DNA of 50,726 bases from a virus (taxonomy: Duplodnaviria > Caudoviricetes): positions 1 through 50,726 of the IMG/VR virus record IMGVR_UViG_3300037234_000187; one strand, written 5' to 3'. Positions 1 to 20,314 of the stretch are shown here, piece by piece; position 1 is the stretch's first letter; the number at the start of each line of letters is the position of its first letter. A program made the position numbers and the translations under genes. The notes beneath the pieces are model-generated. The model was not told the DNA's origin. It did no database searches and saw only the letters and a list, made by a program, of their open reading frames with translations.

Positions 1-80
1 ATTTGTTGTTTTTTATTTAGATAAATATTCAATTAGTTTCTCCAGTTTTTAAATGCCTAACGGCATAGCCAATTAACAAA

Positions 81-137
81 CGCTAACAACACCTAAAAAC
101 AAGCCTACGGCCTGTGTTTAGCTGCCAAGCGTTAGGG
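81..137 (+). repeat. attC-like site 1 (57 bp)
   Basis: CGCTAAC aacacc taaaaacaagcc tac ggcctgtgttta gctgccaagc GTTAGGG; R''/R' boxes plus internal palindrome; 84-134 identical to 635-685. Confidence 0.85.
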
Positions 138-320
138 TTAATAACCCTGCCAATGCCAACCATCTGGTTCTTTTCCTGTTGTATGATACACCCAGTAGGC
201 TTTTAATGTGTTTCTATAGGTTTCATCGTCATCCTGCGTAAACACCCAATCTAAAGTAACTAATGGTATTTCAGTCAAAAAGAAGAAAATCCCCGCAAAA
301 AATCTTATTTTCTTTCTCAT
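138..320 (-). CDS. Cassette-encoded hypothetical protein with N-terminal hydrophobic segment
   Basis: 60 aa; RBS GAGG upstream; stop directly abuts the att site. Confidence 0.7.
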   Translation of the reverse strand: MRKKIRFFAGIFFFLTEIPLVTLDWVFTQDDDETYRNTLKAYWVYHTTGKEPDGWHWQGY

Positions 321-345
321 AAATTCCTCGTTAAAAATTTACTAA

Positions 346-425
346 CCCTAACAACACCTAAAAACAATTTGCCTCAATCCGATTATGGGGTACTGCAAAC
401 TGTGCCTAGCTGCCCAGCGTTATGT
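346..425 (+). repeat. attC-like site 2 (80 bp, longer central variable part)
   Basis: CCCTAAC aacacc taaaaacaatttgc...gcaaactgtgccta gctgcccagc GTTATGT. Confidence 0.85.
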
Positions 426-605
426 GCAATTCTGATTTAGTGCTTTGCATATTAATTCTGCATCTTCTTTTTCAAACGCTTCGCAAACTGGCTTTTTCCA
501 ATAATCACCATAAGTCTCCTTACCTTCTTTAGTGTCAACTACCGTATATTCAAAACAGCAATGGCTAGACGAACTTTCTTCTAATATTATATATCTTTCA
601 GTCAT
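420..605 (-). CDS. Cassette-encoded hypothetical protein (SHCCF...VCE..F...C.ALN motif, phage-like)
   Basis: 61 aa; its TAA stop lies inside the GTTA core of the att site; RBS AAGGT upstream. Confidence 0.75.
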   Translation of the reverse strand: MTERYIILEESSSSHCCFEYTVVDTKEGKETYGDYWKKPVCEAFEKEDAELICKALNQNCT

Positions 606-631
606 TGATTACCTTTATTTTAATGAACTGC

Positions 632-688
632 ACATAACAACACCTAAAAACAAGCCTACGGCCTGTGTTTAGCTGCCAAGCGTTATGG
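632..688 (+). repeat. attC-like site 3 (57 bp)
   Basis: ACATAAC...GTTATGG; 51-bp core identical to site 1. Confidence 0.85.
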
Positions 689-689
689 T

Positions 690-857
690 TTATTTCCCCA
701 ATGCTTTTAAACTACTAACAATAGGAACTAATGCCCTAAGTAGTTGCTTGTCTTTTTCTAAAGATTCCTTCAATTCTTTTGGGTAATGCTTATTTATTAC
801 AATTTCCCTTGCCATACAACGCAATCTATCTACGGCATCATCTACATCTATTTTCAT
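690..857 (-). CDS. Cassette-encoded hypothetical protein
   Basis: ORF 690..881; ATG at 857 preceded by GAGGA is the more likely start (55 aa). Confidence 0.7.
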   Translation of the reverse strand: MKIDVDDAVDRLRCMAREIVINKHYPKELKESLEKDKQLLRALVPIVSSLKALGK

Positions 858-882
858 AGTATCCTCAATTACGCCCAACAAA

Positions 883-930
883 CCATAACAGCACCTAAAA
901 ACAATACTTCGTACTGTTCCTAGGTATTAA
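883..930 (+). repeat. Truncated terminal attC-like site (R'' box and hairpin present, GTT box absent)
   Basis: CCATAAC agcacctaaaaacaatac ttc gtactgttcctaggt, then diverges into the thioredoxin 3' end. Confidence 0.7.
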
Positions 931-934
931 TATA

Positions 935-1201
935 CTAACTACTCATCGCTTTGGCAAGGTTTAAATAGGTTATCTTCTGTTGGGTACCGACTAGGTGTTG
1001 GTCTTCCCTACCATCTGCTTGAAAAACCACCACGGGTATTGAGCTTATACCGACCTCAGCTATCAGATCCTCGTACATTCCCGGGTGGTCGATGTCTACG
1101 TTGATGTAGTCTGCCCCAACCTCCTTGGACACAGACTGGAGCAAAGGCTCCACCATGTGACAGGGCTGGCACCACTCGGCACCTAATTTAATTATTTTCA
1201 T
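935..1201 (-). CDS. Thioredoxin
   Basis: GAEWCQPC active site, VDID, SIP motif. Confidence 0.92.
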   Translation of the reverse strand: MKIIKLGAEWCQPCHMVEPLLQSVSKEVGADYINVDIDHPGMYEDLIAEVGISSIPVVVFQADGREDQHLVGTQQKITYLNLAKAMSS

Positions 1202-2478
1202 GCTGTATATCCTTCAGCCATATCATTCGATGCGGCCCGTTTCCCTAATTGTTCGTCTTCGATTAATTTACTCAATGTCTCGGGGTCATTCTCATCCACA
1301 CCAAAATTCACCGCAGTGTATTTAGCCTCACCCACCTTAAGATTCTCAAGTGCGAGCTTGCAATTTTCTTGAACCTGTGCGGGGGCTGATCCTAGGTGCA
1401 TCATAGTGTAGTTTAAGTAATATGAGTCGAACATCTGGTGTTCCACCAAGAAGCTGTGTGTACCTTCCAGGCCCAGTTCATCATATTTTTTAATCAACCA
1501 CTTAGCATTCTTTTTACCCTTGGCCTTCTTCAACTCTTGGTCTAGTGTGTTCGGTCCATCCCATTTAATTTCCCCGAAGCGCATGATCTTCCCATCATTG
1601 ATTGTGACAGGTGGGATATTATCCGATGTGTCACCCATTAACATCTTGGCCAGAAAATGGATCTCAGCTATTCGCTGGTCCTTCCTAACCCAAGTCATAT
1701 TTGAGCAATCGAATCTAGAAACGAACAAACCGTTCAGCATTTCTTGATCCATATCTTGGTCAGTTGTGGCCATCACTACCGTCATTTCTGGATTAGCCTT
1801 AACGCAAGCATGGGCAATGTCATCAAATTCGGACCACTCAGCTTCTACAGTCGGTACACCAAAATGGTCTGCCAAATTATAGGTTAGCTTTCTGGCCATA
1901 TCTTTGAACTCACGGAATGGTGTGTAGAAATCACTTTCCCACTTATCCCGCCGTTGGCCCTTATATTTGATCAGTGCATAGATTTCTTCCCACTCTGGGC
2001 ATTCTGTGTAGAGATTTTTGAATACCGTTCCACCGCAGTGATCTATAAACCATTGTGGTGTGGCCCCATCTTGCCCGAATCCTACCCAGTTCTCCGTATC
2101 GTCTACATCCATGATTTTCTTTTCTGCAGTCTTCAGTGCCCGTTTAGTCCACCCCTTCTCGGCTAGTTTCTCGATGGCGATGAAGTGATTCCCAATATCG
2201 ATGTAGTATAGTGCCGAGTGGATATTTCGGTAGAACTTATAGTGGTTCTTTATGTGGTTTTCCATGAACGCACTACGCCACTCTTTAGAATCCAGCCCCA
2301 TGATAATCTTAGCACCTCGGAACCTGTGGATTAGGTAGTTCATTTTGTGGTACATATTGATGGCGAATTGCTTCGCCTCCAAATGTGTCGTGTTGGTCCC
2401 TTCATCTTTAGACTTCATACTGTACATGGCTTGATACCAAAATACAGACATGTCTAGTAGAAAAATTACGTTATTCAT
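1198..2478 (-). CDS. 5'-3' exonuclease / flap endonuclease (T4 RNase H / T5 D15-like)
   Basis: FLLDMS, KYKGQR, EFDDIA, TTDQDMDQ and H3TH motif LMGDTSDNIP; likely start ATG 2478 (ORF track 2577). Confidence 0.85.
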   Translation of the reverse strand: MNNVIFLLDMSVFWYQAMYSMKSKDEGTNTTHLEAKQFAINMYHKMNYLIHRFRGAKIIMGLDSKEWRSAFMENHIKNHYKFYRNIHSALYYIDIGNHFIAIEKLAEKGWTKRALKTAEKKIMDVDDTENWVGFGQDGATPQWFIDHCGGTVFKNLYTECPEWEEIYALIKYKGQRRDKWESDFYTPFREFKDMARKLTYNLADHFGVPTVEAEWSEFDDIAHACVKANPEMTVVMATTDQDMDQEMLNGLFVSRFDCSNMTWVRKDQRIAEIHFLAKMLMGDTSDNIPPVTINDGKIMRFGEIKWDGPNTLDQELKKAKGKKNAKWLIKKYDELGLEGTHSFLVEHQMFDSYYLNYTMMHLGSAPAQVQENCKLALENLKVGEAKYTAVNFGVDENDPETLSKLIEDEQLGKRAASNDMAEGYTA

Positions 2479-2479
2479 A

Positions 2480-2647
2480 TCAATACCACCCTTCGGTATT
2501 TCCAATCCACTTACCTGACTTGAGGCAGATGAACCCCCTGTCCAACACCTTGATAACCTTGTCTTGGCGTACACCACCTTCTTGGTTATTGACTAGCTGT
2601 CCCTCTTTTGGGAAGAACTTTTGCTGAGATTGCTCATTTGTATTCAT
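2480..2647 (-). CDS. Small hypothetical protein (MNTNEQSQQKFFPKEGQLV...EGWY, 55 aa)
   Basis: Read manually; fills the gap between two co-oriented genes; GGAG upstream. Confidence 0.5.
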   Translation of the reverse strand: MNTNEQSQQKFFPKEGQLVNNQEGGVRQDKVIKVLDRGFICLKSGKWIGNTEGWY

Positions 2648-3257
2648 CATTGACTCCTTTGAACACCAACTCTGGGTGATCTAATTGTTTCTTGAGTTCC
2701 TTACAGAATTCCTTCCAATTGTCCAATCTGTGATTCTCACGTTGACGTACAATGTTCTGAAGCGTCATGTATGAAACTTTCCATACACGCTTCTGTTGCA
2801 GGCTCTCCAGTAACCCCATCTTGGCAATTTTAATACCGCGAGCACCTTGGATATTATCTACAGCACATTTGAAGAACTCTGCAGATTGCTGCTGCATACG
2901 TACCAGCATGTCTAGGAAGTTTACTTCTACTTTACTTTCAGGTGTAAATGTTTCAAACTCCAATTTCTGCTTGTGCATTGTAGATTCACTCTGCTTGGTG
3001 GTCAGGCGGTATGTATCTGCCTCAGACCAGAAATAGCGTGTCTCATCCACGAGCAGCCAAACATCCATAGACTCTAGGAACTTGTTGTGACCGTTGCCTT
3101 TGAATGCTAGGGTTCGGGATACCTTGGCCATATCCATACATAGCTCATTGAAGTTGCTGAAGTCCGTGAAACTCATATTAGATGTTTTCCCGTGTGACAA
3201 CCCTAGGCCGTATAATGCCTCTAGGTGTCCACGTTCGCTGATTTTAACTACTGGCAT
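2634..3257 (-). CDS. Divergent ThyX-like (flavin-dependent thymidylate synthase fold) phage protein
   Basis: GHNKFL, RYFWSEADTYR, SESTMH, YMTLQNIVRQRENHRLDNWKEFC pattern typical of phage ThyX-like family; canonical RHR motif absent. Confidence 0.55.
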   Translation of the reverse strand: MPVVKISERGHLEALYGLGLSHGKTSNMSFTDFSNFNELCMDMAKVSRTLAFKGNGHNKFLESMDVWLLVDETRYFWSEADTYRLTTKQSESTMHKQKLEFETFTPESKVEVNFLDMLVRMQQQSAEFFKCAVDNIQGARGIKIAKMGLLESLQQKRVWKVSYMTLQNIVRQRENHRLDNWKEFCKELKKQLDHPELVFKGVNDEYK

Positions 3258-4471
3258 ACCAAGATTCCTTCAGTTATCAATACTTCATCTACTTCCACAT
3301 CTGCTACATTTCTATGTACACGGGAGGATAGGACTTGAATTCCACGGTCGTTGAACGCCTTAACTGCCTGTGCTTTGTGATCAACGGACATATGTTCTGT
3401 CCTATCCATACGTACCACCTTTAGAACAGCTTTTGCTACCTTATTAGCCACTAGTGCACAACAGACCAATGATATGACAGAGTTGCCAGACTGCTCCAGA
3501 GGTAGACCGTTGTAAAGTACATCACCATCCCCGAAATCAAGACCAGGAAGAGGCATACCAGCTGCCTCAATAGCGACTCTTTTTTCCTCAGTAATATCTT
3601 GGACGGACTCGTTCGCTCCGAACCAATCACGATACGCTTCATCTGAAGTTTCTTTTCTGGTTTCCCATGATACATATTCTGCCGCCTTTGCGTTAGTTTC
3701 TTTGGCATTATCCAATTGTGTGGCCATTTCAGTTGTGCCCACGAGTTCTTGGGTAGCCAGCCAAGCATCTGAATCGACTATGAATTTTTCTTGCTTTTCT
3801 AGTTCAAGTTTAAGCTTCATTACCGCTTCGGATGCACTAGATACGTTGGTCTTAGTTGCGAGGATTACGGAGTTAGCCTCTTCCGCAGCATTGTACTGAT
3901 TGCTCAGTTCCAGAATGTCGATCTCTTTAACCTGGTCTGGTTCGGCCCCTACTTGTTTCTCAGCGAAATCCTTGGTAGTGTTTTTCTGAGTACGTAGTTC
4001 ACGGGCATCTTTCAATCGGGAATTGATGTCATTAATATCCACACCTTCTTGGAAGTTCACACATTCCTGAAGGGCTTCAAGTCGGGCTAGTGGTTTCATA
4101 TCCGCAATATCTTGTGGATTCTTTGCTAGGGATTCAAACCACTTCTTAAACGCAGCAGCTGTGATTTTAGTGCCATCGTCCGTGGTGATCTTGATTGTAC
4201 TGGTCTTAGCCGTGATTGTACGCTCCGCGAATACTTTCTTACCATTGATGGGGTCTTTAAGTATTACACGTAGTTTGGCCTTACCCTGTCCCTTCTTAAT
4301 GGGGTCTGAGGCAGTTTGTACAATTTCCCACAGTAGTGAGATCAAAGTAGTCTTACCCCCGTCAGGCATACCTACGACGTGTAGGTTGTTGCCACGGATC
4401 TGAAGATTAAGCGACTCGAAAATACGGTAGTTCTCGGCCTCAATCTTATCAATTACATATTGGTTTTCCAT
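3248..4471 (-). CDS. SMC/SbcC/RecF-like ABC ATPase with coiled coil
   Basis: N-terminal IEAENYR, Walker A GMPDGGKTT, long coiled coil, signature-like LEQSG and Walker B VRMD. Confidence 0.75.
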   Translation of the reverse strand: MENQYVIDKIEAENYRIFESLNLQIRGNNLHVVGMPDGGKTTLISLLWEIVQTASDPIKKGQGKAKLRVILKDPINGKKVFAERTITAKTSTIKITTDDGTKITAAAFKKWFESLAKNPQDIADMKPLARLEALQECVNFQEGVDINDINSRLKDARELRTQKNTTKDFAEKQVGAEPDQVKEIDILELSNQYNAAEEANSVILATKTNVSSASEAVMKLKLELEKQEKFIVDSDAWLATQELVGTTEMATQLDNAKETNAKAAEYVSWETRKETSDEAYRDWFGANESVQDITEEKRVAIEAAGMPLPGLDFGDGDVLYNGLPLEQSGNSVISLVCCALVANKVAKAVLKVVRMDRTEHMSVDHKAQAVKAFNDRGIQVLSSRVHRNVADVEVDEVLITEGILVCQ

Positions 4472-4481
4472 TTTATTGTTC

Positions 4482-4958
4482 CTAGTTTAAGTGTTTTGCG
4501 ATTACGCTTTCGATGTCTGGTGCCATAAAGTCGGCAGGTTTCAGAACTTTACCTTCATCACTAATTGCAAATGGTTTACCATCCGAATCAAGTTTAGATA
4601 GGTTGGCACGGGCTACTTCAGAGAAACACTCATCGAAAGGAATGTTCTTCCGTGCGGCAGTATCCATGATGTAGTATGACGCATCCACCAAGGTATCGGC
4701 TTGTTCTGCGATTAACCTTAGGTCCACCCTATCACCAGTTGTCAGGTAATTGATATTGTCAGCCAGGTCTGCCATGAAAGCTACACGCTCTATGAAAGTA
4801 TGTGTAGTACATAGCAATTCCATCATTTCATCCATCACCATCTTAGTGATAAATTCTGTCTCAGCCTTGGTCATCACTGTCGGATTTAATGGGATAGCCC
4901 CACCCTTGGCCTCAACTGCTGCTTTGGAGAATGTCTTTACTTTATCGAAATTTGTCAT
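4482..4958 (-). CDS. MazG-like (PRA-PH/DR2231-type) nucleoside triphosphate pyrophosphohydrolase
   Basis: DEMMEL, EQADTLVD..Y, EVARANLSK, GKVLKP..F..P motifs. Confidence 0.85.
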   Translation of the reverse strand: MTNFDKVKTFSKAAVEAKGGAIPLNPTVMTKAETEFITKMVMDEMMELLCTTHTFIERVAFMADLADNINYLTTGDRVDLRLIAEQADTLVDASYYIMDTAARKNIPFDECFSEVARANLSKLDSDGKPFAISDEGKVLKPADFMAPDIESVIAKHLN

Positions 4959-4974
4959 CTCTATTGTTCCTTGT

Positions 4975-5235
4975 TTAATGTTGGTTTTCTAATTTCTCGT
5001 TAATGGCATCCGATATAAATTTGGCTACATCATCCTGAAATTTCTCAGCATTTTTAAACCCCTTACCACTAAATTTCCCAGAGTTGCTTAGGAATAGTTT
5101 TTGAATCCGTCCCCATCCCCTCATATCTAGGAGCATTTGTAAGCCTTCGGATTCTGTATCAGAGAAGAAGATACCCGAACCCTGATCGAATACCACCTTA
5201 CCTATGAAGGTTGTGATCTGTTTATTGTCTGACAT
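4975..5235 (-). CDS. Hypothetical phage protein
   Basis: 86 aa, own promoter and RBS; DMRGWGRIQ motif. Confidence 0.75.
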   Translation of the reverse strand: MSDNKQITTFIGKVVFDQGSGIFFSDTESEGLQMLLDMRGWGRIQKLFLSNSGKFSGKGFKNAEKFQDDVAKFISDAINEKLENQH

Positions 5236-5267
5236 GTATATATCCTTGTTTAATTTGACTTGTTTTA

Positions 5268-5296
5268 AATATATAACAAAACCCCCTGCATTGCAA
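5268..5296 (-). promoter_or_regulatory. Sigma70-like promoter
   Basis: TTGCAA-17-TATATT. Confidence 0.65.
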
Positions 5297-5303
5297 GGGG
5301 TTT
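5278..5303 (-). terminator. Rho-independent terminator hairpin overlapping the -35 box
   Basis: AAACCCC ttgc aat gcag GGGGTTTT downstream of ORF 5332..6093. Confidence 0.6.
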
Positions 5304-5331
5304 ATTGATTATTTTATTTATTGTTTGATTA

Positions 5332-6093
5332 TTAGCCGTTGAAGCCACCCATTCCAGACTGTGCTGGTGGTTCAGGTGGCCCACCCTGTGGCGTTGTCGG
5401 CTGGTTGAAAGCCTGAGCAGGTGGGGATTCTTGCTGTGGGGGTTGCTGTGCCTGTGGAGCCGCTTGCTGAACTGGAGCTTCTTGCTGTTGTTGGGCTGGA
5501 GCTTGTGCTACGATTACCCGTGGCCAGTCCTGTGCCCACAATTTACGTGGGGCTTCTTCACTCTTGTCCCACTTGCCAGTTTGATCATTCTTTTTACTAC
5601 CTTGGGCAATATCGAATTCAACGAAGAGTGCAGTTGCGCCATTTACAATAGACTGTAACAATCTGTTAAGAGTTGCATATCCTGGATCTACGTCAACATA
5701 TAGACTCCCATCCGGTGTCATCGGTAGGACCGAGAGATCAGCACCAGCCGCAGCTAGATCCGTGATCAATTCTAGGTTCATACCCTTGTTGACTTTTGGA
5801 TTTACATTACCATCTTTGAAAGTTGGATTGAATCCGTAGTAGGTTTTAAATGAACGACCTAATTCCAACACAATCTTGTTCATAATTTCGTTGTGTTCTG
5901 CTGGCCATTCAGTTGGAATAAATTCCGCTACCGTCTGGAAAGCTGTCTTGTCTCGGTTAAGACTTACGTGTAATTTTGTAAGCTTGGCTTTCACACCCTT
6001 ACAAATTGGCCACTTCACCTTTCTTGCTTCACGATCCGCTTCACGTTGTGTTGCATTTGCTTGGGCTTGTGCCCCGTATCCATTATCAGTCAT
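5332..6093 (-). CDS. Putative single-stranded DNA-binding protein
   Basis: Beta-rich N-terminal domain with long Q/P/A-rich tail ending GMGGFNG; located in replication/recombination operon (inference). Confidence 0.5.
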   Translation of the reverse strand: MTDNGYGAQAQANATQREADREARKVKWPICKGVKAKLTKLHVSLNRDKTAFQTVAEFIPTEWPAEHNEIMNKIVLELGRSFKTYYGFNPTFKDGNVNPKVNKGMNLELITDLAAAGADLSVLPMTPDGSLYVDVDPGYATLNRLLQSIVNGATALFVEFDIAQGSKKNDQTGKWDKSEEAPRKLWAQDWPRVIVAQAPAQQQQEAPVQQAAPQAQQPPQQESPPAQAFNQPTTPQGGPPEPPAQSGMGGFNG

Positions 6094-7838: not shown

Positions 7839-7862
7839 TTGTTCTCCTTTAAGTTTAATTAG

Positions 7863-7947
7863 TAGAGGATGTAGGATTCGAACCTACGGTGACTTTCGCC
7901 ACGCTTAGTTAGCAACCAAGTGCAATAAACCACTCTGCCAATCCTCT
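7863..7947 (-). tRNA. tRNA-Ser(GCT)
   Basis: AGAGGAT/ATCCTCT acceptor, D-arm, CTTGG-TTGCTAA-CTAAG anticodon arm, long variable arm, GTAGG-TTCGAAT-CCTAC T-arm; CCA not encoded. Confidence 0.9.
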
Positions 7948-8871: not shown

Positions 8872-8944
8872 TCCAGTAGCCGAGACTCGAACTCGAATTA
8901 TCGGCTTCACAGGCCGAGGTTCTAACCAATTGAACTACTACGGG
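8872..8944 (-). tRNA. tRNA-His(GTG), atypical
   Basis: GTTC/GAAC D-stem, TCGGC-CTGTGAA-GCCGA anticodon arm, TTCGAGT T-loop; one C-T mismatch in acceptor; no G-1, A73. Confidence 0.8.
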
Positions 8945-9391: not shown

Positions 9392-9423
9392 CTCTGCTCT
9401 CCTTTGTTTGTTGTAAATTATAA

Positions 9424-9496
9424 CAGACCCCAGTGGGCTCGAACCACTGACCTGCAGAATCAAAATCTGCTGTTCTACCAACTGAACTAGAGGTCT
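9424..9496 (-). tRNA. tRNA-Gln(TTG)
   Basis: AGACCTC/GGGGTCT acceptor, GTTC/GAAC D-stem, GCAGA-TTTTGAT-TCTGC anticodon arm, AGTGG-TTCGAGC-CCACT T-arm. Confidence 0.9.
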
Positions 9497-9609
9497 ATAC
9501 TAGGTTTGACACGTCCTAGTTCGCTTATCATGTATCCATATCCTACTACCACCGGGTTGATATCGACAAACCTTATAGTGCTCAACTGCGTTTCTAGGTC
9601 AAGTTAAAT

Positions 9610-9798
9610 TTAATATACATCTCCATCCAGTGTAAGCGCGGCATACGTAGAAGGTATGTCACCTAGGCCACCACAGCTTTCGGTGAAGACACTGTTCAGG
9701 TGTCCCATTAGAGGATGGTTAATCCCTAGCTCACACCAGACGGAGTTGTACACTATTTCATACCAAATACCCAAGGGATTGGTAGGATATACTTCCAA
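9610..9798 (-). CDS. Small hypothetical protein
   Basis: Co-oriented ORF overlapping the end of the HNH gene; start uncertain. Confidence 0.35.
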   Translation of the reverse strand: MEVYPTNPLGIWYEIVYNSVWCELGINHPLMGHLNSVFTESCGGLGDIPSTYAALTLDGDVY

Positions 9799-10355
9799 TA
9801 GTGTTCCCCGCCTTGTCCCAGACTACCCCCTCGGCTGCTGAAGTTGCAAGCCGATTTAATGTTAGCAGATGAGATACCGAACGCACTAGCCGCATCACTT
9901 GGGGATGGGTACGTTTCAAGTCTTTCACCTTTCACATCATATCGCGCCACTGGGATGACGTTATGTGACGGGTGGGAGTATTTAAGTAATCGTTTACGTG
10001 TGCTCTCACACTCCCGTGTTGCCCAGAATAGATTATGTGTGCAATTATTCAAGGAGTTCCCATCCTTATGAATAACCACCATTCCCTCTTCTTTTGGACG
10101 TTCACCGTAAACCAGTGCCACTAAGTTGTGAACATAGTGTGTACTGTACTTACCATTTCTCCCACGTAGGCTAACCTTCACATGGGGGCAGTCTGTATCG
10201 ACCAATGCGTAAGGAACTTCACGAACTTCGCCTCTCCTATGATAGTCAACATTGAATATTTGTCCCAATTCTGACACAAAATACTGCGGAGCGATGGCTA
10301 AATCGGCCTGCTGTATGTTGCTCATAAAGATTGGGTGTAGAGTGCGTAATGTCAT
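9753..10355 (-). CDS. HNH homing endonuclease (NUMOD4-HNH-NUMOD1 type)
   Basis: YFVSELGQI, YVHNLVA, VIHKDGNSLNN..NLFW, C-terminal YPSPSDAA...NIKSAC. Confidence 0.88.
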   Translation of the reverse strand: MTLRTLHPIFMSNIQQADLAIAPQYFVSELGQIFNVDYHRRGEVREVPYALVDTDCPHVKVSLRGRNGKYSTHYVHNLVALVYGERPKEEGMVVIHKDGNSLNNCTHNLFWATRECESTRKRLLKYSHPSHNVIPVARYDVKGERLETYPSPSDAASAFGISSANIKSACNFSSRGGSLGQGGEHYWKYILPIPWVFGMK

Positions 10356-10423: not shown

Positions 10424-10687
10424 TTAAATAAAAATTGCAGACTCCCTAATCATTATGATATCTCTTGACTCACCTATCATCCACCTATCTGGTTTGTCTT
10501 GCCTGAATAGGTACTTACCTCCAGCGTATGTGCATCTACCGAATACCTCACCCGTATCGGACCATATATCATACATGGTTCCGATATCCAGTGTGGATGA
10601 CATCTTCTTCCAAGCTGTGGCTTCTATAAATGGCCCACTGGGCCATTCTATTTGAATCCACGGAACTACTACATCGTTCGGTATCAC
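10424..10687 (-). CDS. Hypothetical protein
   Basis: Likely GTG start overlapping the polymerase stop (GTGA), GGAGG RBS. Confidence 0.6.
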   Translation of the reverse strand: MIPNDVVVPWIQIEWPSGPFIEATAWKKMSSTLDIGTMYDIWSDTGEVFGRCTYAGGKYLFRQDKPDRWMIGESRDIIMIRESAIFI

Positions 10688-12960
10688 ACCACCCTCCCTT
10701 CTGTAGAGTAAATAGTATTTTTCATCGTTTCCATTTGATCCTCCAATGTCTCTCCAGACTTTAGGTATTTCTTCAACTTGTGGTAGAATCTGGCACCCTT
10801 GCCCTCGATCCATGTGTCTTCATGACTATGTAGGTCGATATCTAAACGTATGTCCAGCTTATCGCCAAGTACATTCCTTACGGCCTGCAGCATACATTCG
10901 GCCATATTGTCCCGTACCCATTCAACCTTATCGTCATCTGCCAGTGCGTACAGCGCATCATGTAGTGGGGAGATTAGATTAATACCTATGTTGTGGCAAA
11001 GTCTAACAGCCTCACGCATGATTACACCACCCGTACCTTGGGTTGGGAAGTTCTTTACGGACAATTCATTATCATTATCACCGAAAAGTGTCCAGCCATC
11101 CCAAAGGGTGTAGCATTTGTTCACCTTGTAGCTAACCATTATCTCTTTCAACCATTTCCAGTATCGGGGATATGTTCGTGAATGAAGTTGGATTAACCTC
11201 TTAGCTTCGGCGGGTGAAATAAGATATCCCATATCAGCAGTAAGCTTAATGGAAAGGTTAACATAACCCATACCGTATTGTAAGCCAAGAGTTGTAGACT
11301 TAAATAAATCTCTTTGGCGCGCATAGCTTTCAAATAGGTCATACTCTTCCATCTCCTTAGGGAAGAAACCACGAAGCTGTTGAATCCTAGTTTCGGATGG
11401 TCCGTGTTCGAATGTCTTTTCTGGCCACTGCTTTTTAAGTAATGGATCGAGTAACTTTTTGAAGTTCTTCACCTTCTTAGGGTCAGCACTATCTGGAACT
11501 GCCCCTGCTTTTTTGGCAAAATATAGGTACGGATCACCTGAACGGTATGCAGCCATCATATCTGGATCACCTGAGAGTATCGCAGCAATTGCGAATTCCT
11601 GTGAGGCATAATCAATCGCAATGATTGTTTTACCCTTTGGTGGCCGTATGAGGCATCTAAGCCATGCTGACATCGCTAAGATGAATCTTGATGCCTTGGG
11701 TGCGTTCCGACTAGTTTGCGTCCCATAGCTACCTAAAAACGTCCGTACGGAGTGATCAGAGCCAACCGAATCGAAGAAATCACCGTTAAGCTTAATTTTC
11801 TTCTCATCTGGTTGTTTGAACCATTTGATCTGGCTAATAAGCTTAGTGGTCTGCTTGTAGTGGTTAATCCCAGGGTATCCCACATACTTATCCAGTGTCT
11901 TCTCATCCGTCTTTACAGAGTTTCCATCGTGGTTCTTAGCCTTGGCTTCTGTTCTAGGCCAGTTCTCGAACACATCTTCACCTAAAGTGTGGAGGTATTC
12001 TACAAACTTATCGTACTTCTTGGTCCAACTACCTAGTAATTCTTTACCCTTTCGCTGTCGGACAAAGAACGGGAATACATTTTCGACCAAATCTTTGACC
12101 AAAGATTCCGATGCCATTTTCTCATTCTTCCTAAGGTTCCATGCAGCTTCATAGTCCAGTGGGCATCCTACCTGCTCCATCTTGGCAATTGAGGCTTGGA
12201 ATTCCCCACGCTTAAGCATTGAACCTACAATATGATCATGTGGCATTTTGGACTTAGCCTTGATTACATTATATTGGGCCAGAAGAAGATAGGGTAGTGG
12301 CATCACATCACTCGTACAGTAGTCCATAATATTCTTACGGTCTTTGAGTTCAAATGAGTCTGGATTGGAAATGATTAGATCCCGCATAGCCGTTTTGTGG
12401 CCTGTGTCCACACACACCCCTAAATGTAGACCTACCGCATCTGCCATTGATCCACCGATCTTATTATTGTCGTCACCAGCGTTCAGTTCTTTTACGAACT
12501 TAGGCTTTTTGGTGAAGATCTGGAATCCATTTACGAACTTCCTACCGTACATACAACTGTCATTCTTATTCTGACATTGTTTGTGATCCGCATATAGGTC
12601 AATCCACTCGAACTCATGGGGATTAAACCCCAAAGCCATCATAGCTCGTGCCTCTGCAGGTGTAGCGTATCCCACCATAATTGGGTTATCCGTCACGCGA
12701 CAGGATTCTAGGTAATCATAAAGTGTGTCCCAAGAGTTGGCCTCATCTAAATGTAGCCAAAATTCCCTAACATCTCCACTGGAGTCCATCGTGGAGCACG
12801 ATACTAAATTTAGTACCGGCTCGGAAGAAGAATTGAACTCAAAGTCAAGAAATAGTAGACATCTCTGAAAGAGAGTACTTAGTTCCTGTAAGAACTGTAG
12901 GTCCGGCTTCTTCTGTTTGAAGTTCTGGACCAGTATTTCTGGTTTCGGTATTGTCAGCAT
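10684..12960 (-). CDS. polA: DNA polymerase family A with 3'-5' exonuclease domain
   Basis: ExoI FLDFEF, ExoIII YCTSD, TQTSRN, motif A IDYASQE, motif B RDLFKSTTLGLQYG, NFPTQG, motif C LHDA. Confidence 0.95.
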   Translation of the reverse strand: MLTIPKPEILVQNFKQKKPDLQFLQELSTLFQRCLLFLDFEFNSSSEPVLNLVSCSTMDSSGDVREFWLHLDEANSWDTLYDYLESCRVTDNPIMVGYATPAEARAMMALGFNPHEFEWIDLYADHKQCQNKNDSCMYGRKFVNGFQIFTKKPKFVKELNAGDDNNKIGGSMADAVGLHLGVCVDTGHKTAMRDLIISNPDSFELKDRKNIMDYCTSDVMPLPYLLLAQYNVIKAKSKMPHDHIVGSMLKRGEFQASIAKMEQVGCPLDYEAAWNLRKNEKMASESLVKDLVENVFPFFVRQRKGKELLGSWTKKYDKFVEYLHTLGEDVFENWPRTEAKAKNHDGNSVKTDEKTLDKYVGYPGINHYKQTTKLISQIKWFKQPDEKKIKLNGDFFDSVGSDHSVRTFLGSYGTQTSRNAPKASRFILAMSAWLRCLIRPPKGKTIIAIDYASQEFAIAAILSGDPDMMAAYRSGDPYLYFAKKAGAVPDSADPKKVKNFKKLLDPLLKKQWPEKTFEHGPSETRIQQLRGFFPKEMEEYDLFESYARQRDLFKSTTLGLQYGMGYVNLSIKLTADMGYLISPAEAKRLIQLHSRTYPRYWKWLKEIMVSYKVNKCYTLWDGWTLFGDNDNELSVKNFPTQGTGGVIMREAVRLCHNIGINLISPLHDALYALADDDKVEWVRDNMAECMLQAVRNVLGDKLDIRLDIDLHSHEDTWIEGKGARFYHKLKKYLKSGETLEDQMETMKNTIYSTEGRVV

Positions 12961-13356: not shown

Positions 13357-13682
13357 TATGAGCCCCTTGAATATGTGATTACACTATCGATTATCCCGTG
13401 TTCACCCATTACTCGCTTACAGTCATCACAGCAGTAAGTGTGCCCTATTAGGTATAGAGTAGCACCCTTGGCCTCTTCTCCAGCCTTTAGGCAAGCGTCT
13501 ACTTCGGCATGGTGCCCTTGCTTACAGACATTCTTGCAAAGTTCGTAACCTCTCCCCGACTTCATCCCAGCTCTAGGGCACTCGGTTAGTTGATTGTTGT
13601 GGATCTCATTGGTCCCGATTGACACCAAGATCCCGTCCTTCATTATTACGGCTACTGTTGATTGTTTTAGACAATTTATCAT
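13356..13682 (-). CDS. dCMP/cytidine deaminase family protein
   Basis: HAE...C(C)xxC zinc motif: HHAEVDAC, GATLY, YCCDDC. Confidence 0.88.
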   Translation of the reverse strand: MINCLKQSTVAVIMKDGILVSIGTNEIHNNQLTECPRAGMKSGRGYELCKNVCKQGHHAEVDACLKAGEEAKGATLYLIGHTYCCDDCKRVMGEHGIIDSVITYSRGS

Positions 13683-14596
13683 TAGTTCTCCTCGATTCCT
13701 TTAAATATGTGGGCGATTACATCTACGGTCCAGCCATCCCCTAGGATGCAGGCTGCCTCGTTTTTGGTTAGCCCGTCTGTATATCCAATAGGTACTGTCT
13801 GGCAGGCTTCTCTTTCGTGACTAGTCATATACCGTACACCGCCGTAGATACTCAAATCTACCTCAACTGCTAGTGCGTCAATCTCTTTAGCTGATTTCCC
13901 TTTGAAGTTTTCGTCGAAGTGTCTCTTTAATTGATTAAAGTGGTACTCAGATTTGAAGATCAGAGTGGTAAATCCAGTATTAAAATACCTGTGACACATT
14001 TTGATCGGGGTGGATAGTGGGCGTGAGTCACTTTCTAGTAACGTCCTAGCTTTATCCCTGTCCGAGAACCCATCAACTAGGAAATCGTTCAATTTCAAGC
14101 CCTTATCTACAGGTGTGCTGATGTTTGGAATGTTAGTCCAGTACAGTCGATGTCTTAGGTGGGGCGCAACTAGCTCCGAATTTATCACAACAGGTTCACA
14201 CCCAATGATCGAACTAACGAAGTCCTGATGTTCCTTCTTCATTCTAACATTCTCAAGTAGGAAGTATTTAGGTCTACAGGCTTTAAGCAATCTAACGTAC
14301 TCAAAGAATAGCCCACTCTTAACCCCATCTGTCCCGAGACGCTGCTTGTTAGCACCTGAGAAATCTTGACACGGGCTTCCACCGATAAGTAGATCTATCT
14401 TAGGTAGTTGCCATGCTCGTATCTTGGTAACGTCACCTAGTCTTTTATCCTTATCTTGAGGGTAGTTTCGGTCAGCCACTTTGATCGCATAGTCCTTGAT
14501 CTCAGCAGAGAAGTAGTTTCCCACTTCAATTCCTGCTTTCTCAAGTGCGATTCTCCCACACGACATCCCATCGAACAGACTTAGTACATCTAACAT
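13682..14596 (-). CDS. DNA (cytosine-5)-methyltransferase
   Basis: Motif I LSLFDG, motif IV GGSPCQ, motif VI LLENV, R.RLYWTN, C-terminal LGDGWTVDVIAHI. Confidence 0.95.
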   Translation of the reverse strand: MLDVLSLFDGMSCGRIALEKAGIEVGNYFSAEIKDYAIKVADRNYPQDKDKRLGDVTKIRAWQLPKIDLLIGGSPCQDFSGANKQRLGTDGVKSGLFFEYVRLLKACRPKYFLLENVRMKKEHQDFVSSIIGCEPVVINSELVAPHLRHRLYWTNIPNISTPVDKGLKLNDFLVDGFSDRDKARTLLESDSRPLSTPIKMCHRYFNTGFTTLIFKSEYHFNQLKRHFDENFKGKSAKEIDALAVEVDLSIYGGVRYMTSHEREACQTVPIGYTDGLTKNEAACILGDGWTVDVIAHIFKGIEEN

Positions 14597-14901
14597 ATTT
14601 CCTCCACATCCCCGTCACTGTTCACAAAATACTGAACGCGATCCATAAGTGAACGATCCATCTCTTTACCAATCAGTCCAGCTTTCTTGTCACAGTAAGC
14701 AACTTCGTCCAGATAGAATCCAATATCATCGGAGTCTTCCCAGTTCTTGAAGAGTACCACATCTACATCTGGATTACATATGATCTGCTCACCAACCTCT
14801 AGATAGTTCTCACCTATATTTACACCTGTTCCTAGAGTTATCACCAAAGCTTTCACTTTAGGTATAATCTCGTAGGATACTGCTATTTCTTTGTAATCCA
14901 T
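14590..14901 (-). CDS. Hypothetical protein
   Basis: 103 aa acidic, coupled to neighbours. Confidence 0.75.
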   Translation of the reverse strand: MDYKEIAVSYEIIPKVKALVITLGTGVNIGENYLEVGEQIICNPDVDVVLFKNWEDSDDIGFYLDEVAYCDKKAGLIGKEMDRSLMDRVQYFVNSDGDVEEIC

Positions 14902-16975: not shown

Positions 16976-17503
16976 ATGAAACTAGAACCATCACTTACTG
17001 AAATACAGAACTACCTAGAGTCTAAACTTGCATCATGCATTCAACGGCGAGACGGCGCAGCAGATACACATGTTGCGGCAGCCAATGGTGGTCAGATATG
17101 TGTACTTAAAGAAATGATGAACTACCTTAAAGACCATGTGGTCGATATGCCGGTGATTGGCGACATCATGTACAATGATAAAACACTGGATGAAAACATA
17201 ATCACATGTACCGGACGTGTGAATGGGTACAAGGCACAGGTGGCTAGATATCAAAGATCACTAACTAAGGTCGCAAAGGAACTAGATAATCTAAAAGAGG
17301 AGAAGAAGGCACTAGAGGACATAGACAGTATTCCAATTTCAGATCACGCCTACCGTAGATACTTTGAAAGAGTACTGGGCTATGACATGAAACAGGTGGA
17401 CTCGGAGATCAAATCCAGGGTCGGTAGTAATGATAAGAGATTTAAAATTGCCATACGTAACCAAGAAATTAAAACGATAATAGTTAAATACCCTAAACAA
17501 TAA
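16976..17503 (+). CDS. Hypothetical protein with coiled coil and ISDHA..RY.ER motif
   Basis: 175 aa, AAGGAG RBS. Confidence 0.8.
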   Translation: MKLEPSLTEIQNYLESKLASCIQRRDGAADTHVAAANGGQICVLKEMMNYLKDHVVDMPVIGDIMYNDKTLDENIITCTGRVNGYKAQVARYQRSLTKVAKELDNLKEEKKALEDIDSIPISDHAYRRYFERVLGYDMKQVDSEIKSRVGSNDKRFKIAIRNQEIKTIIVKYPKQ

Positions 17504-17516
17504 CAAAGGAACAATA

Positions 17517-18044: not shown

Positions 18045-18046
18045 AG

Positions 18047-20090: not shown

Positions 20091-20314
20091 TAATGGATGC
20101 AGACTTCCACGGTGACGGTGGGACGTTACAAGCCATTGGCGGTGACTATACTGAATCTGAATTCCTTGAGTACGGTAAAGATTCACGTAAGATATCAAGA
20201 CAGATCATTATGACCATAGATGAGATGTCAGTCGCGGCTAAACTTAGCGGTGTTAGTAGATCCGAACTTATTAAACTGGTTACTCAGACTGCGGCTAGGT
20301 TGGGTATGAAGTGA
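20087..20314 (+). CDS. Small putative DNA-binding protein
   Basis: AKLSGVSRSELI resembles RHH/HTH. Confidence 0.55.
   Translation: MIMDADFHGDGGTLQAIGGDYTESEFLEYGKDSRKISRQIIMTIDEMSVAAKLSGVSRSELIKLVTQTAARLGMK

What the first reader, a model, noticed from the sequence alone, without database searches (positions are those of the whole stretch)
81..930. Phage-borne integron-like gene cassette array
Seen: four related imperfect palindromes (81-137, 346-425, 632-688, 883-930) alternate strictly with single small promoterless ORFs. Each cassette is closed by its own perfect 10-bp inverted repeat, different for each: GTTAGGGTTA/TAACCCTAAC, GTTATGTGCA/TGCACATAAC, GTTATGGTTT/AAACCATAAC. Within any one palindrome the two outer boxes do not match beyond TAAC/GTTA. 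Established: this is the footprint of integron cassettes inserted by recombination at G|TT, where R' pairs with the R'' of the same cassette. Inference: this phage acquires and shuffles accessory genes as cassettes, using its own tyrosine recombinase outside the window or the host integron integrase. Integron arrays are described mainly from chromosomes and plasmids, so a cassette platform in a self-replicating tailed phage would be a little-described system.
Basis: partly seen in the sequence, partly recalled or inferred. Interest (0 to 1): 0.92.

Follow-up and report, generated by a model that had tools for sequence, protein, structure and literature searches.

The report
Integron-like gene cassette array in phage
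A phage genome from a sediment sample ends its replication genes with a row of tiny genes, each boxed between folded DNA repeats that look and behave like the cassette sites of bacterial integrons, a kind of array already reported in a few phages but here in an unusual form.

Summary
Four copies of one repeat (81-137, 346-425, 632-688, and a half copy at 883-930) alternate with three small minus-strand genes. Each gene is flanked by its own 13-14 nt inverted repeat that starts at the shared GTTA/TAAC core.

A covariance model I built from 44 attC sites lying beside integron integrases puts the three full sites as the top three hits of the genome, at 11.8-14.7 bits. Genuine out-of-family attC sites score 10.8-32.6 bits, the published phage TJE1 array 10.6-19.2, and other phage DNA 9.8 at most. 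Contigs of one sequencing run show extra site variants and different neighbours, breaking at site edges. They also show that the window's left end is only an assembly break.

My best reading (0.55) is an attC-like cassette array without an integrase, a CALIN. It is not canonical. It has no extrahelical-base bulges, the gene-sense strand folds best, and two of the three cassette genes are ordinary phage genes elsewhere. No tyrosine, serine or Y1 recombinase is in the 50.7 kb. Phage CALINs were described in 2023 (PMC9892861), so I rate this a new variant of a known kind.

The parts
1..80 (-). Start of a further cassette ('cassette 0'), which runs off the window's left end. It begins with TTAGCGTTTGTT on the minus strand, directly after site 1.
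   Evidence: Sequence. A Logan contig of run X1 covers 1-113 and goes on 1268 nt beyond position 1 at the phage's depth (11.7 against 12.5), so the window's end is an assembly break.
81..137 (.). Site 1, a full attC-like imperfect palindrome. Its core is identical to that of site 3.
   Evidence: R2 model: 14.7 bits, E 0.23, + strand, best hit of the genome. The minus strand folds at -13.8 kcal/mol (z -3.1) against -9.8 for the plus strand. Its hairpin plus T run is flagged as terminator-like on the minus strand.
138..320 (-). Cassette gene 1, 60 aa, with a hydrophobic N-terminus. No homolog was found.
   Evidence: No Pfam or PHROG family. No tblastn match in 50,697 phage records at E <= 0.1. 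Only itself turns up in the 5.8-billion protein set, on 2 contigs.
131..144 (.). Left arm of the cassette-1 inverted repeat. Its partner is 339-352.
   Evidence: (I2: 14 nt, 93%).
339..352 (.). Right arm of the cassette-1 inverted repeat.
   Evidence: (I2).
346..425 (.). Site 2, a full attC-like site with a longer and different middle hairpin (9-bp stem, 22-nt loop).
   Evidence: R2 model: 11.8 bits, E 1.1, + strand.
420..605 (-). Cassette gene 2, 61 aa, a member of a family of small phage proteins. Its stop codon lies inside the TAAC box of site 2.
   Evidence: phrog_19733 (E 5e-14) and phrog_34012. tblastn finds 38 phage records at 42-52% identity, from phages of Pseudomonas, Burkholderia, Bordetella, Serratia and others. 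In the 3 records inspected the homolog sits among adjacent or overlapping annotated genes with no annotated repeat features; I did not read the flanking DNA.
419..432 (.). Left arm of the cassette-2 inverted repeat. Its partner is 625-638.
   Evidence: (I3: 14 nt, 93%).
625..638 (.). Right arm of the cassette-2 inverted repeat.
   Evidence: (I3).
632..688 (.). Site 3, a full attC-like site.
   Evidence: R2 model: 11.8 bits, E 1.1, + strand. Minus strand -12.7 kcal/mol (z -2.7) against -7.6 for the plus strand. Terminator-like on the minus strand.
690..857 (-). Cassette gene 3, 55 aa from the ATG at 857 (Shine-Dalgarno GAGGA upstream). The mechanical ORF runs to a TTG at 881.
   Evidence: The identical 55-aa protein is on record on 3 contigs. 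Four relatives, 76-84% identical in alignment A5, lie on contigs of 568-4294 nt. A 52% homolog in viral contig L203 lies in a packed operon, and nothing scored with R2 in that record.
682..694 (.). Left arm of the cassette-3 inverted repeat. Its partner is 877-889.
   Evidence: (I7: 13 nt, 92%).
877..889 (.). Right arm of the cassette-3 inverted repeat.
   Evidence: (I7).
883..930 (.). Site 4, a half site next to the conserved backbone. It has the TAAC box, the left box and a hairpin of its own (15 pairs on the minus strand, 3 of them G.T), but no AGCGTTA box. On the minus strand it keeps exactly the half that ends in G|TTATGG, so it may be attI-like.
   Evidence: A low-depth contig of run X1 carries a copy of 884-923 (3 differences) with a different left flank.
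929..957 (-). Sigma-70-like promoter match (TTGCCA, 17 nt, TATATT; 10 of 12) at the end of the thioredoxin gene, pointing into the array.
   Evidence: This is a consensus match only: 3 such matches in 3 kb against 7.4 expected from shuffles.
935..1201 (-). Thioredoxin-like gene, the last backbone gene before the array.
   Evidence: PF00085, E 4e-10; phrog_22.

Best explanation
This is an integron-like array of single-gene cassettes at the far end of the minus-strand replication-gene block of a tailed phage. The phage has a lambda-type large terminase, and no integrase was found.

The cassettes are separated by attC-like sites. Each site is an imperfect palindrome with invariant TAAC and GTTA cores, two conserved inner boxes and a variable hairpin.

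Each cassette carries its own 13-14 nt extension of the outer stem. That extension is split between the two sites that flank the gene. This is what remains when a circular cassette with one complete folded site is inserted by a single site-specific crossover inside the conserved core.

I infer that a tyrosine recombinase supplied in trans inserts and excises the cassettes. It could be the host's integron integrase, or a gene in the unassembled part of the genome.

I also infer that the array is read on the minus strand: backbone, promoter-like site, half site 4 as an attI-like entry point, then gene plus site, gene plus site. The hairpin followed by a T run in each site would then damp transcription from cassette to cassette.

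Shown: the repeats, the cassette-specific inverted repeats, the strand-specific fold, the score under a general attC model, the variants in one run, and the lack of a recombinase in the 50.7 kb.

Inferred: recombination itself, the enzyme, the crossover edge and the direction of the array.
For: 1. Cassette-specific inverted repeats. Three pairs of 13-14 nt, one mismatch each, start at GTTA/TAAC and flank each ORF. They are the only such pairs in the genome; 200 shuffles give a mean of 0.27.

2. General attC model. I took seeds from arrays beside TIGR02249 integrases in 19 genomes. Model R1 found 105 matches at E <= 1 in 297,540 bases: 104 in the array loci, 1 in the window, and 0 in four other phage loci. 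Model R2 was built from the 44 matches at E <= 1e-4. With filters off, R2 returned 7 matches at E <= 10 in the window. The top three are exactly 81-137 (14.7 bits), 346-425 (11.8) and 632-688 (11.8), and the next best is 9.8.

3. Benchmarks for R2:
- 90,276 bases of seven unrelated viral loci: 2 matches, best 9.8 bits.
- Integrase-adjacent arrays not used in training: L200 10.8-16.0, L202 14.2-21.7, L194 17.5-32.6 bits.
- Phage TJE1, whose CALIN sites IntI1 recombines (PMC9892861): 19.2, 14.2 and 10.6 bits in the first 1.5 kb.

4. Fold. On the minus strand 85 of 96 cells pair (88.5%). With the partner slid by 1-3 columns, 37-56% pair. Two pairs of the variable hairpin show changes on both sides.

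5. Layout as in cassettes. The stop codons lie 0-4 nt from, or inside, the TAAC box. The leaders are 31, 32 and 31 nt long and each has a Shine-Dalgarno motif (my count).

6. Contigs of run X1:
- A 2.8x contig leaves the main path at 900/901, carries another hairpin, rejoins at 668-687 and continues into a different flank after GTTATG.
- Another 2.8x contig has a site-4-like copy behind a different flank.
- A further variant leaves at 370/371.
- A 1964-nt contig at depth 9 ends in a copy of 644-686 with 4 differences.

7. The identical ORF3 protein is on record on 3 contigs. ORF1 and the exonuclease are each on 2.

8. The repeat is confined to the array.
Against: 1. The model scores are marginal one by one (E 0.23 to 1.1). 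The three sites are copies of one family, so they count as about one independent hit. The match rests on the two ends (CUAACAA ... CAaGCGUUAG), and the middle is skipped as an insert.

2. There are no single-base bulges where canonical attC sites carry extrahelical bases. The stem has 1x1 mismatches, plus a 4-nt bulge (CTTG) on the 5' arm of the minus strand.

3. The orientation cues conflict:
- The model reads the + strand as the top strand, which would make all three genes antisense to their sites.
- In that reading the excess of unpaired bases lies on the opposite arm. Among 40 genuine sites with a single-hairpin fold, the excess is positive in 33, zero in 5 and negative in 2.

4. No integrase or other site-specific recombinase was found in the record.

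5. The same site family was not found elsewhere:
- 0 hits to a two-part pattern in IMG/VR.
- 2 matches inside coding sequence, by my reading of the sequence, in the JGI metagenome contigs.
- Only single 17-28 nt matches in 30 of 400 genomes of one class.

6. The strong bias for G.T pairs on the gene-sense strand (18 of 96 cells) and the T run after the hairpin fit selection on the mRNA. That alone needs no recombination.

7. The run X1 variants come from one run, which may be the source sample, and from short low-depth contigs.

8. The two viral records that hold homologs of window genes (41% exonuclease; 52% ORF3) have no R2 hit.
Confidence: 0.55

Rival explanations
1. The repeats are phage-native regulatory elements: terminator or attenuator hairpins on the mRNA, like the stem-loop half of the PeSLs of T4-type phages. 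Genes are shuffled by homologous recombination between the roughly 50-nt repeats, with no dedicated recombinase. The phage's own exonucleases and ATPase would supply the recombination functions.
For: - The hairpin plus TTTTT at sites 1 and 3 is called terminator-like on the gene strand.
- The gene-sense strand folds best, with 18 of 96 cells paired as G.U.
- Cassette genes 2 and 3 belong to phage gene families.
- The phage encodes a 5'-3' exonuclease, an SbcD-like exonuclease (phrog_284) and an AAA ATPase near the array.
- No site-specific recombinase was found.
- The run X1 variant that leaves the main path at 900/901, inside a site and between the left box and the hairpin, is what exchange within a conserved box would give.
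- PeSL-mediated shuffling and mini-circles are documented (PMC2839356 and PMC4122927, abstracts read).
Against: - Homologous exchange between repeats does not explain why each gene's two flanks are complementary to each other over 13-14 nt. This holds in 3 of 3 cassettes.
- No sigma-70-like promoter lies inside any site, whereas PeSLs are promoter plus stem-loop.
- The repeat occurs only in this array, not scattered through variable regions of the genome.
- The ends of the sites resemble attC ends well enough to be the top hits of a general attC model.
Confidence: 0.25
2. The sites are folded recombination sites of another, non-integron system. The enzyme would be unidentified: host Xer-type recombinases acting on hairpin or dif-like sites, a hairpin-dependent HUH enzyme, or an unrecognised phage protein. 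In this reading the likeness to attC ends is convergent.
For: - The defining extrahelical bases of attC are missing, and the arm asymmetry and gene orientation do not fit the canonical site.
- The outer stem of the reconstructed cassette site is 13-14 bp, longer than the 7-bp R box of attC (the canonical length is recalled).
- No integrase is in the record.
- Many phage proteins here have no family. Among them, 5 of the 10 proteins of 45010-50583 have neither a Pfam hit nor a hit in the PHROG scans run on some of them.
Against: - No Y1 HUH or serine recombinase was found.
- No positive evidence points to any particular alternative enzyme.
- The TAAC/GTTA cores and the neighbouring bases are those of attC.
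Confidence: 0.12
3. The array is not phage DNA. It would be a piece of a bacterial chromosomal integron next to a prophage end, or a mis-join of the assembly.
For: - The array lies at the very end of the contig.
- IMG/VR classes the record as linear, without end repeats.
- The sequence left of position 1 was not seen.
Against: - Depth is even across the array and the backbone in run X1: 11.7, 12 and 12.5 for the three contigs that tile 1-3000.
- Cassette genes 2 and 3 have homologs inside other phage genomes.
- No integrase or other lysogeny gene was found.
- GC content is 41% over 1-2000 against 39-46% elsewhere.
- CheckV completeness is 95%.
Confidence: 0.05
4. The pattern is a tandem duplication of one unit (site plus small gene) that has since diverged.
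For: Start-to-start spacing is regular at 265, 286 and 251 nt, and sites 1 and 3 are identical.
Against: - The three ORFs share no similarity. Only ORF2 hits a PHROG family, and ORF1 and ORF3 have different homolog sets.
- The flanks are inverted, not direct, repeats.
Confidence: 0.03

Closest known systems
Clusters of attC sites lacking an integrase (CALINs) in virulent phages, e.g. Tetrasphaera phage TJE1 (Qi et al. 2023, PMC9892861)
   Same: Both are short arrays of small ORFs separated by attC-type palindromes in a tailed phage without intI, placed at the edge of a gene module. Under my home-made attC model the TJE1 sites score 10.6-19.2 bits and the window's sites 11.8-14.7.
   Different: In TJE1 the model's top strand is the coding strand; here it is the opposite strand. 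Here the sites are near-identical copies of one family, as in sedentary chromosomal arrays. At least two cassette genes are ordinary phage genes elsewhere. The TJE1 sites have been shown to recombine with IntI1; these have not been tested. I could not see the published coordinates of the TJE1 sites, because the supplements are closed.
attC sites and cassette arrays of bacterial integrons, especially sedentary chromosomal integrons
   Same: Shared features: TAAC/GTTA inverse-core and core boxes; an imperfect palindrome with a variable terminal hairpin; an outer box complementary to the start of the same cassette rather than to the neighbour; one promoterless gene per cassette; a stop codon at the site; high similarity among sites of one array.
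   Different: - No extrahelical-base bulges.
- Extra unpaired bases lie on the other arm if the + strand is the top strand.
- The cassette's own outer stem is 13-14 bp.
- The gene-sense strand is the better folder by 2-5 kcal/mol. In 34 of 44 genuine sites the antisense (bottom) strand is the better one, by a mean of 1.1.
- No intI or recognisable attI is present.
- The replicon is a phage.
PeSL mobile regulatory cassettes of T4-type phages (PMC2839356, PMC4122927; abstracts read)
   Same: Conserved short stem-loop repeats flank small non-essential phage ORFs in a variable region, and are proposed to drive gain, loss and exchange of those ORFs, including through small circles.
   Different: PeSLs combine a strong early promoter with the stem-loop, are spread over many regions of the genome, and act through homologous recombination. 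Here no promoter lies in the sites, the repeat is confined to one array, and each gene has its own complementary flanks.
pdif modules of Acinetobacter plasmids (recalled; no call or paper consulted)
   Same: Small gene modules are bounded by short recombinase-binding palindromes and moved by host recombinases supplied in trans.
   Different: As I recall them, pdif sites are 28-nt sites in alternating orientation without a long hairpin. Here the sites are direct repeats of 57-80 nt. This was not tested.

Membership tests
Integron attC site | Inverse core RYYYAAC at one end and core GTTRRRY at the other | tested here: met
   TAAC and GTTA are invariant in the three full sites. The 7-mers fit in 5-6 of 7 positions: CGCTAAC, CCCTAAC, ACATAAC, CCATAAC; GTTAGGG, GTTATGT, GTTATGG (the consensus is quoted in PMC9892861).
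Integron attC site | Imperfect palindrome that folds as a single strand into an R stem, an L stem and a variable terminal structure | tested here: met
   Minus-strand folds of -13.8 and -12.7 kcal/mol, with z -3.1 and -2.7. 88.5% of cells pair, against 37-56% when the partner is slid, and the inner hairpin pairs are replaced on both sides. Site 2 alone is not better than shuffles (z 0.16).
Integron attC site | Extrahelical bases on the R''-L'' arm of the recombined (bottom) strand | tested here: not met
   There are no single-base bulges, only 1x1 mismatches and a 4-nt bulge. With the + strand as top, the excess of unpaired bases lies on the arm opposite to that of 33 of 40 genuine sites.
Integron attC site | The outer box is complementary to the first bases of its own cassette, not to those of the next cassette | tested here: met
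   This holds in 3 of 3 cassettes over 13-14 nt with one mismatch. They are the only such pairs in the genome, and shuffles give a mean of 0.27.
Integron attC site | Recognised by an attC covariance model | tested here: inconclusive
   The models of IntegronFinder and HattCI are not on hand. With a home-made model from 44 integrase-adjacent sites, the window's sites score 14.7, 11.8 and 11.8 bits (E 0.23-1.1). They are the top 3 of the genome, lie within the range of held-out genuine sites (10.8-32.6) and of TJE1 (10.6-19.2), and lie above phage background (9.8 at most in 90 kb). Only the ends align.
Integron attC site | The cassette ORF lies on the top strand, upstream of its site | tested here: inconclusive
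   By the model's orientation (+ = top) all 3 ORFs are antisense. By layout (stop at the TAAC box, 31-32 nt leaders) they are in the canonical place if the minus strand is top.
Integron attC site | Recombined by an integron integrase at G|TT | not testable with these tools
   This needs an attC x attI assay, or junction reads from raw data. Contigs of run X1 show break points at site edges only, to within the shared bases.
Complete integron | An intI gene with attI and a Pc promoter next to the array | tested here: not met
   No TIGR02249 or PF00589 match at E <= 1 in six frames of the 50,726 bases. The controls rang in 14 of 14 genomes. At least 1268 nt left of the array were not seen.
CALIN (cluster of attC sites lacking an integrase) | Two or more attC sites close together without intI | tested here: inconclusive
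   Three full sites and a half site lie within 850 nt, with no intI. The result depends on the attC call above. PMC9892861 required at least 2 predicted sites within 3 kb, and a score of at least 20 bits with its own model, which I could not run.
PeSL regulatory cassette | A strong sigma-70-type early promoter joined to a terminator stem-loop, repeated through the variable regions | tested here: not met
   Terminator-like hairpins are present at sites 1 and 3. There is no promoter-like match inside any site, and only one lies upstream of site 4. The repeat is found only in this array.

The most novel reading that the evidence does not exclude
This is a cassette platform that belongs to the phage world rather than a stray piece of a bacterial integron. 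It has a promoter-proximal half site next to the thioredoxin gene that serves as an attI-like entry point. Genes from the phage gene pool are inserted there as circles, each carrying a folded site whose sense strand, not its antisense strand, is the structured one and which lacks extrahelical bases. The enzyme is not a canonical IntI: either a host recombinase of another kind or an unrecognised phage protein. Strains in one sediment sample would already differ in their first cassettes.
Probability: 0.2. Interest if true: 0.85.

Novelty: new variant of a known kind. Interest (0 to 1): 0.6.

Why it matters
Phage-borne attC clusters were first reported in 2023. They were read as a route by which bacterial integron cassettes travel on phages.

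This array points the other way. Two of its three cassette genes are small phage genes that sit as ordinary operon genes in other phages. The sites are a tight family of their own with non-canonical structure.

If the sites recombine, tailed phages would have a cassette mechanism for swapping their many small accessory genes. That gene class includes host take-over and anti-defence functions, whose rapid turnover is usually put down to illegitimate or homologous recombination.

The case is also practical. The repeats break assemblies, so such arrays will be under-represented in viral contig collections, and they score near the threshold of general attC models.

Tried and rejected
**Searches for the same repeat elsewhere**
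- An 18-mer of the left box gave 19 single matches in IMG/VR. It gave 120 or more single matches in the species genomes. BLAST of the four sites against the 139 loci fetched up to then showed matches of 26 nt at most, confined to the part of the sites that holds the scanned 18-mer.
- A two-part pattern gave 0 hits in IMG/VR.
- The same pattern gave 2 hits in the metagenome contigs. By my reading of the sequence both lie inside coding sequence and are chance.
- BLAST of site 1 against 400 genomes of one class gave only 17-28 nt matches, at most 2 per genome. The host and its attC type therefore remain unknown.

**Rfam**
- Nothing meaningful in 1-1300. The best match was 18.8 bits against a gathering score of 92.

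**Relatives**
- No near match of 1-6000 in 50,697 phage records.
- The exonuclease has no tblastn hit there and no close relative in IMG/VR.
- A profile of 7 sequences found one viral contig at 41% identity. There a C5 methyltransferase follows the exonuclease and the contig ends.
- That record and the one holding the 52% ORF3 homolog have no R2 hit. The tool notes that an empty answer of this kind shows little.

**Other points**
- ORF1 and ORF3 have no tblastn match in the phage records.
- I rejected tandem duplication because the genes are unrelated.
- I rejected a MITE with target-site duplication because the flanks are inverted across the gene, not direct around the repeat.
- I rejected an invertible shufflon because each inverted-repeat pair is unique.
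- My first attempt at an RNAalifold structure on the MAFFT alignment of 13 seed sites captured the R stem and little of the L stem. I used it as it stood, so models R1 and R2 weigh the site ends most.
- The run X1 depth figures are per contig and say nothing about copy number beyond the rough doubling at the shared cores.
- The supplements of PMC9892861 (site coordinates) are closed and may bear on the TJE1 comparison.
Full report
**What the window is**

The 50,726 bases are a whole IMG/VR virus record. It is classed as linear, and CheckV puts it at about 95% complete.

It is a tailed phage. The identified genes are:

| Gene or function | Position (strand) |
|---|---|
| Lambda-type large terminase | 42858-44972 (-) |
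| Small terminase | 46405-47049 (-) |
| Portal | 40856-42493 (-) |
| Major head protein | 38119-39177 (-) |
| DNA polymerase | 10684-12960 (-) |
| Primase | 14901-16562 (-) |
| C5 methyltransferase | 13682-14596 (-) |
| RNA ligase, phosphoesterase, kinase, DNA ligase block | + strand |
| HNH endonucleases (two) | 9753-10355, 47056-47655 |
| tRNA genes (four) | see 'noticed in passing' |

The finding lies at the downstream end of the minus-strand replication block. That block runs, in transcription order: primase, polymerase, SbcD-like exonuclease, ATPase, MazG-like protein, ThyX-like protein, 5'-3' exonuclease, thioredoxin.

**The observation**

- The left box TAACARCACCTAAAAAC occurs four times, at 84, 349, 635 and 886. 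Nowhere else does it occur with fewer than 3 mismatches. Shuffles expect 0.37 matches.
- Sites 1 and 3 are identical from TAAC to GTTA.
- Site 2 keeps both boxes but has a longer hairpin.
- Site 4 keeps the TAAC box, the left box and a hairpin of its own, but has no right box.
- Between the sites lie three minus-strand ORFs of 60, 61 and 55 aa.
- Each ORF is bracketed by an inverted repeat of 14, 14 and 13 nt that begins at the shared GTTA/TAAC and differs for each ORF.
- These are the only three such pairs in the genome. The mean over 200 dinucleotide shuffles is 0.27.
- In all three pairs the single mismatch is at position 11 and is a G.T pair on the minus strand (my reading).

**The fold**

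The minus strand, which is the sense strand of the genes, folds much better than the plus strand.

| Site | Minus strand (kcal/mol) | Plus strand (kcal/mol) |
|---|---|---|
| 1 | -13.8 | -9.8 |
| 3 | -12.7 | -7.6 |
| 2 | -8.0 | -4.9 |

On an alignment of the four sites, 85 of 96 cells of the hand-drawn structure pair. Eighteen of them pair as G.T or G.U, which would be A.C on the other strand. One G.T pair in the hairpin is kept in 4 of 4 sites. Two inner hairpin pairs are replaced on both sides. When the partners are slid, pairing drops to 37-56%. With only four sequences the shuffle control is weak (54 of 500 shuffles reach the observed cells with a change on both sides).

On the minus strand the hairpin of sites 1 and 3 is followed by TTTTT and is scored terminator-like.

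**Is it attC-like?**

No attC model is among the tools, so I made one.

1. A search for the integron integrase family (TIGR02249) in 401 genomes of one class found 148 genomes over the cut-off.
2. I fetched 12 kb on the array side of 20 of these integrases. I found candidate sites with a simple fold filter in 19 of the 20 stretches (one was only 1.3 kb and was left out) and picked 38 by eye.
3. I aligned the 13 sites of at most 66 nt and built model R1.
4. R1 found 105 matches at E <= 1 in 297,540 bases. Of these, 104 were in the array loci, one was in the window (81-137, 15.0 bits), and none was in four other phage loci.
5. I built R2 from the 44 matches at E <= 1e-4, all on the expected strand and none from the window.

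With filters off, R2 gives 7 matches at E <= 10 in the window. The first three are 81-137 (14.7 bits, E 0.23), 346-425 and 632-688 (11.8 bits, E 1.1 each), all on the + strand. The next best is 9.8 bits.

Benchmarks for R2:

| Test set | Result |
|---|---|
| Seven unrelated viral loci, 90,276 bases | best 9.8 bits |
| Held-out array L200 | 10.8-16.0 bits |
| Held-out array L202 | 14.2-21.7 bits |
| Held-out array L194 | 17.5-32.6 bits |
| Phage TJE1, first 1.5 kb | 19.2, 14.2, 10.6 bits around orf1-orf3, plus one 16-nt match at 15.8 bits |

The TJE1 array is published, and IntI1 recombined its two tested sites (PMC9892861, section 3.4 read).

So the window's sites score like genuine sites of a family the model has not seen, and above phage background. 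Two cautions apply. The three sites are copies of one family. And only their ends align: CUAACAA at one end and CAaGCGUUAG at the other.

**Where it departs from attC**

- Genuine sites in my set carry single-base bulges on the 5' arm of the top strand. The excess of unpaired bases there is positive in 33 of 40 single-hairpin folds, zero in 5 and negative in 2.
- The window's sites have no such bulges. They have two 1x1 mismatches and a 4-nt bulge.
- If the + strand is the top strand, as the model says, that bulge is on the wrong arm and all three genes are antisense to their sites.
- If the minus strand is the top strand, the asymmetry and the gene layout are canonical. The stop codon lies 4, 0 and 3 nt from the TAAC box, and the leaders are 31, 32 and 31 nt long with a Shine-Dalgarno motif (my count). 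But then the sequences next to the cores read like a canonical bottom strand, and the top strand is the better folder. That is the minority case, 10 of 44.

I could not resolve this conflict.

Three things favour reading the array on the minus strand:

1. The gene layout just described.
2. Site 4 next to the backbone keeps exactly the half that ends in G|TTATGG on that strand and lacks the other half. This is what an entry site needs.
3. That half is the best conserved part of all four sites.

**Evidence from a sequencing run**

One public run (X1) holds 99% of the sampled words of 1-3000. It is labelled a marine sediment metagenome, is kept as contigs, and may be the source of the record. Laid on 1-3000, its contigs break at the repeats, as expected of a de Bruijn assembly.

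- **The backbone.** Three contigs at depth 11.7-12.5 tile the stretch. The first runs 1268 nt beyond position 1. The window's left end is therefore an assembly break, and the sequence after site 1 (which begins TTAGCGTTTGTT on the minus strand) is probably a further cassette. The protein search likewise reports a contig of 51,958 nt with the identical exonuclease.
- **The variants.**
  - A 151-nt contig at depth 2.8 follows the window up to 900, has 25 other letters in place of the hairpin, rejoins at 668-687, and then continues for 81 nt into sequence unlike the window after GTTATG.
  - A second 151-nt contig at depth 2.8 has a copy of 884-923 with 3 differences, preceded by 110 nt unlike the window.
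  - A third contig leaves the window at 370/371, with another hairpin and another right box.
  - A 1964-nt contig at depth 9 ends in a copy of 644-686 with 4 differences.

In short, the family has more members than the four in the window. In the same sample the same site is found next to different neighbours, with the differences starting at the edges of the sites or of their boxes.

It comes only from short contigs of a single run that may be the source, so I count it as suggestive. It also fits the count of contigs on record for the identical proteins: 3 for ORF3, and 2 each for ORF1 and the exonuclease.

**The cassette genes**

- ORF2 belongs to phrog_19733/34012. It has 38 tblastn matches at 42-52% identity in phages of Pseudomonas, Burkholderia, Bordetella, Achromobacter, Serratia and others. 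In the three records I opened, it lies among adjacent or overlapping annotated genes with no annotated repeat features; I did not read the flanking DNA.
- ORF3 has four relatives, 76-84% identical in alignment A5, on short contigs. It also has a 52% homolog in a viral contig, where start and stop codons overlap those of its neighbours.
- ORF1 has no relative.

At least two of the three cassettes therefore hold genes of the phage pool, not known bacterial cassette genes.

**The enzyme**

Six-frame searches of the record found no tyrosine recombinase, integron integrase, serine recombinase or Y1 transposase at E <= 1. The controls rang in 10 to 14 of 14 known genomes.

Pfam and PHROG scans of 48 distinct proteins (58 protein scans in six calls) found none either. 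I did not scan every structural protein.

The enzyme is thus either the host's or encoded in the unseen part. This is inference.

**Verdict**

The best reading is an attC-like cassette array without an integrase. That is a phage CALIN, a kind first described in 2023, here in a non-canonical form.

The main rival is a phage-native terminator repeat that shuffles genes by homologous recombination, as PeSLs do. It explains the strand bias and the T runs. It does not explain the cassette-specific complementary flanks.

The rest goes to another folded-site system, a host flank, or tandem duplication.

Noticed in passing
window 1 (left end): The window's left end is an assembly break, not a genome end. 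A contig of run X1 at the phage's depth continues 1268 nt beyond position 1, and a 51,958-nt contig with the identical exonuclease is on record.
   Followed up: partly
window 55-68: A small perfect palindrome, ATGCC-TAAC-GGCAT, lies inside the leader of the cut-off cassette left of site 1. It carries the same TAAC/GTTA tetramer as the site cores.
   Followed up: no
window 16976-22069 (+): The only plus-strand block encodes an RNA ligase (18047-18940), a metallophosphoesterase (19193-19723), an AAA_33 kinase-like protein (19704-20090), a VRR-NUC nuclease (20311-20760) and an ATP-dependent DNA ligase (20720-22069). This looks like an RNA or tRNA repair set.
   Followed up: no
window 7862-7947, 8872-8944, 9423-9497, 42740-42813: Four tRNA genes (Ser-GCT, His-GTG, Gln-TTG, Pro-TGG), all on the minus strand.
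   Followed up: no
window 9753-10355 and 47056-47655: Two HNH endonucleases with NUMOD motifs. One lies directly upstream of the small terminase gene (46405-47049), a placement known from cos-type phages (that link is recalled).
   Followed up: no
L140 11254-12069: In the only relative found through the exonuclease (41% identity), the gene after the exonuclease is a C5 cytosine methyltransferase cut by the contig end. There is no thioredoxin and no array, so the region downstream of the exonuclease varies in this lineage.
   Followed up: partly
genomes: 148 of 401 genomes sampled from one class carry an integron integrase over the NCBIfam cut-off. This share looked high to me. Four of the 401 genomes are marked unpublished.
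   Followed up: no
L212 (Tetrasphaera phage TJE1) 244-1519: My model's hits in TJE1 all lie in the first 1.5 kb, just after the annotated terminator palindrome at 49197-49217 of the circular record. The published array is thus also placed at a module edge behind a terminator (PMC9892861, section 3.4).
   Followed up: partly
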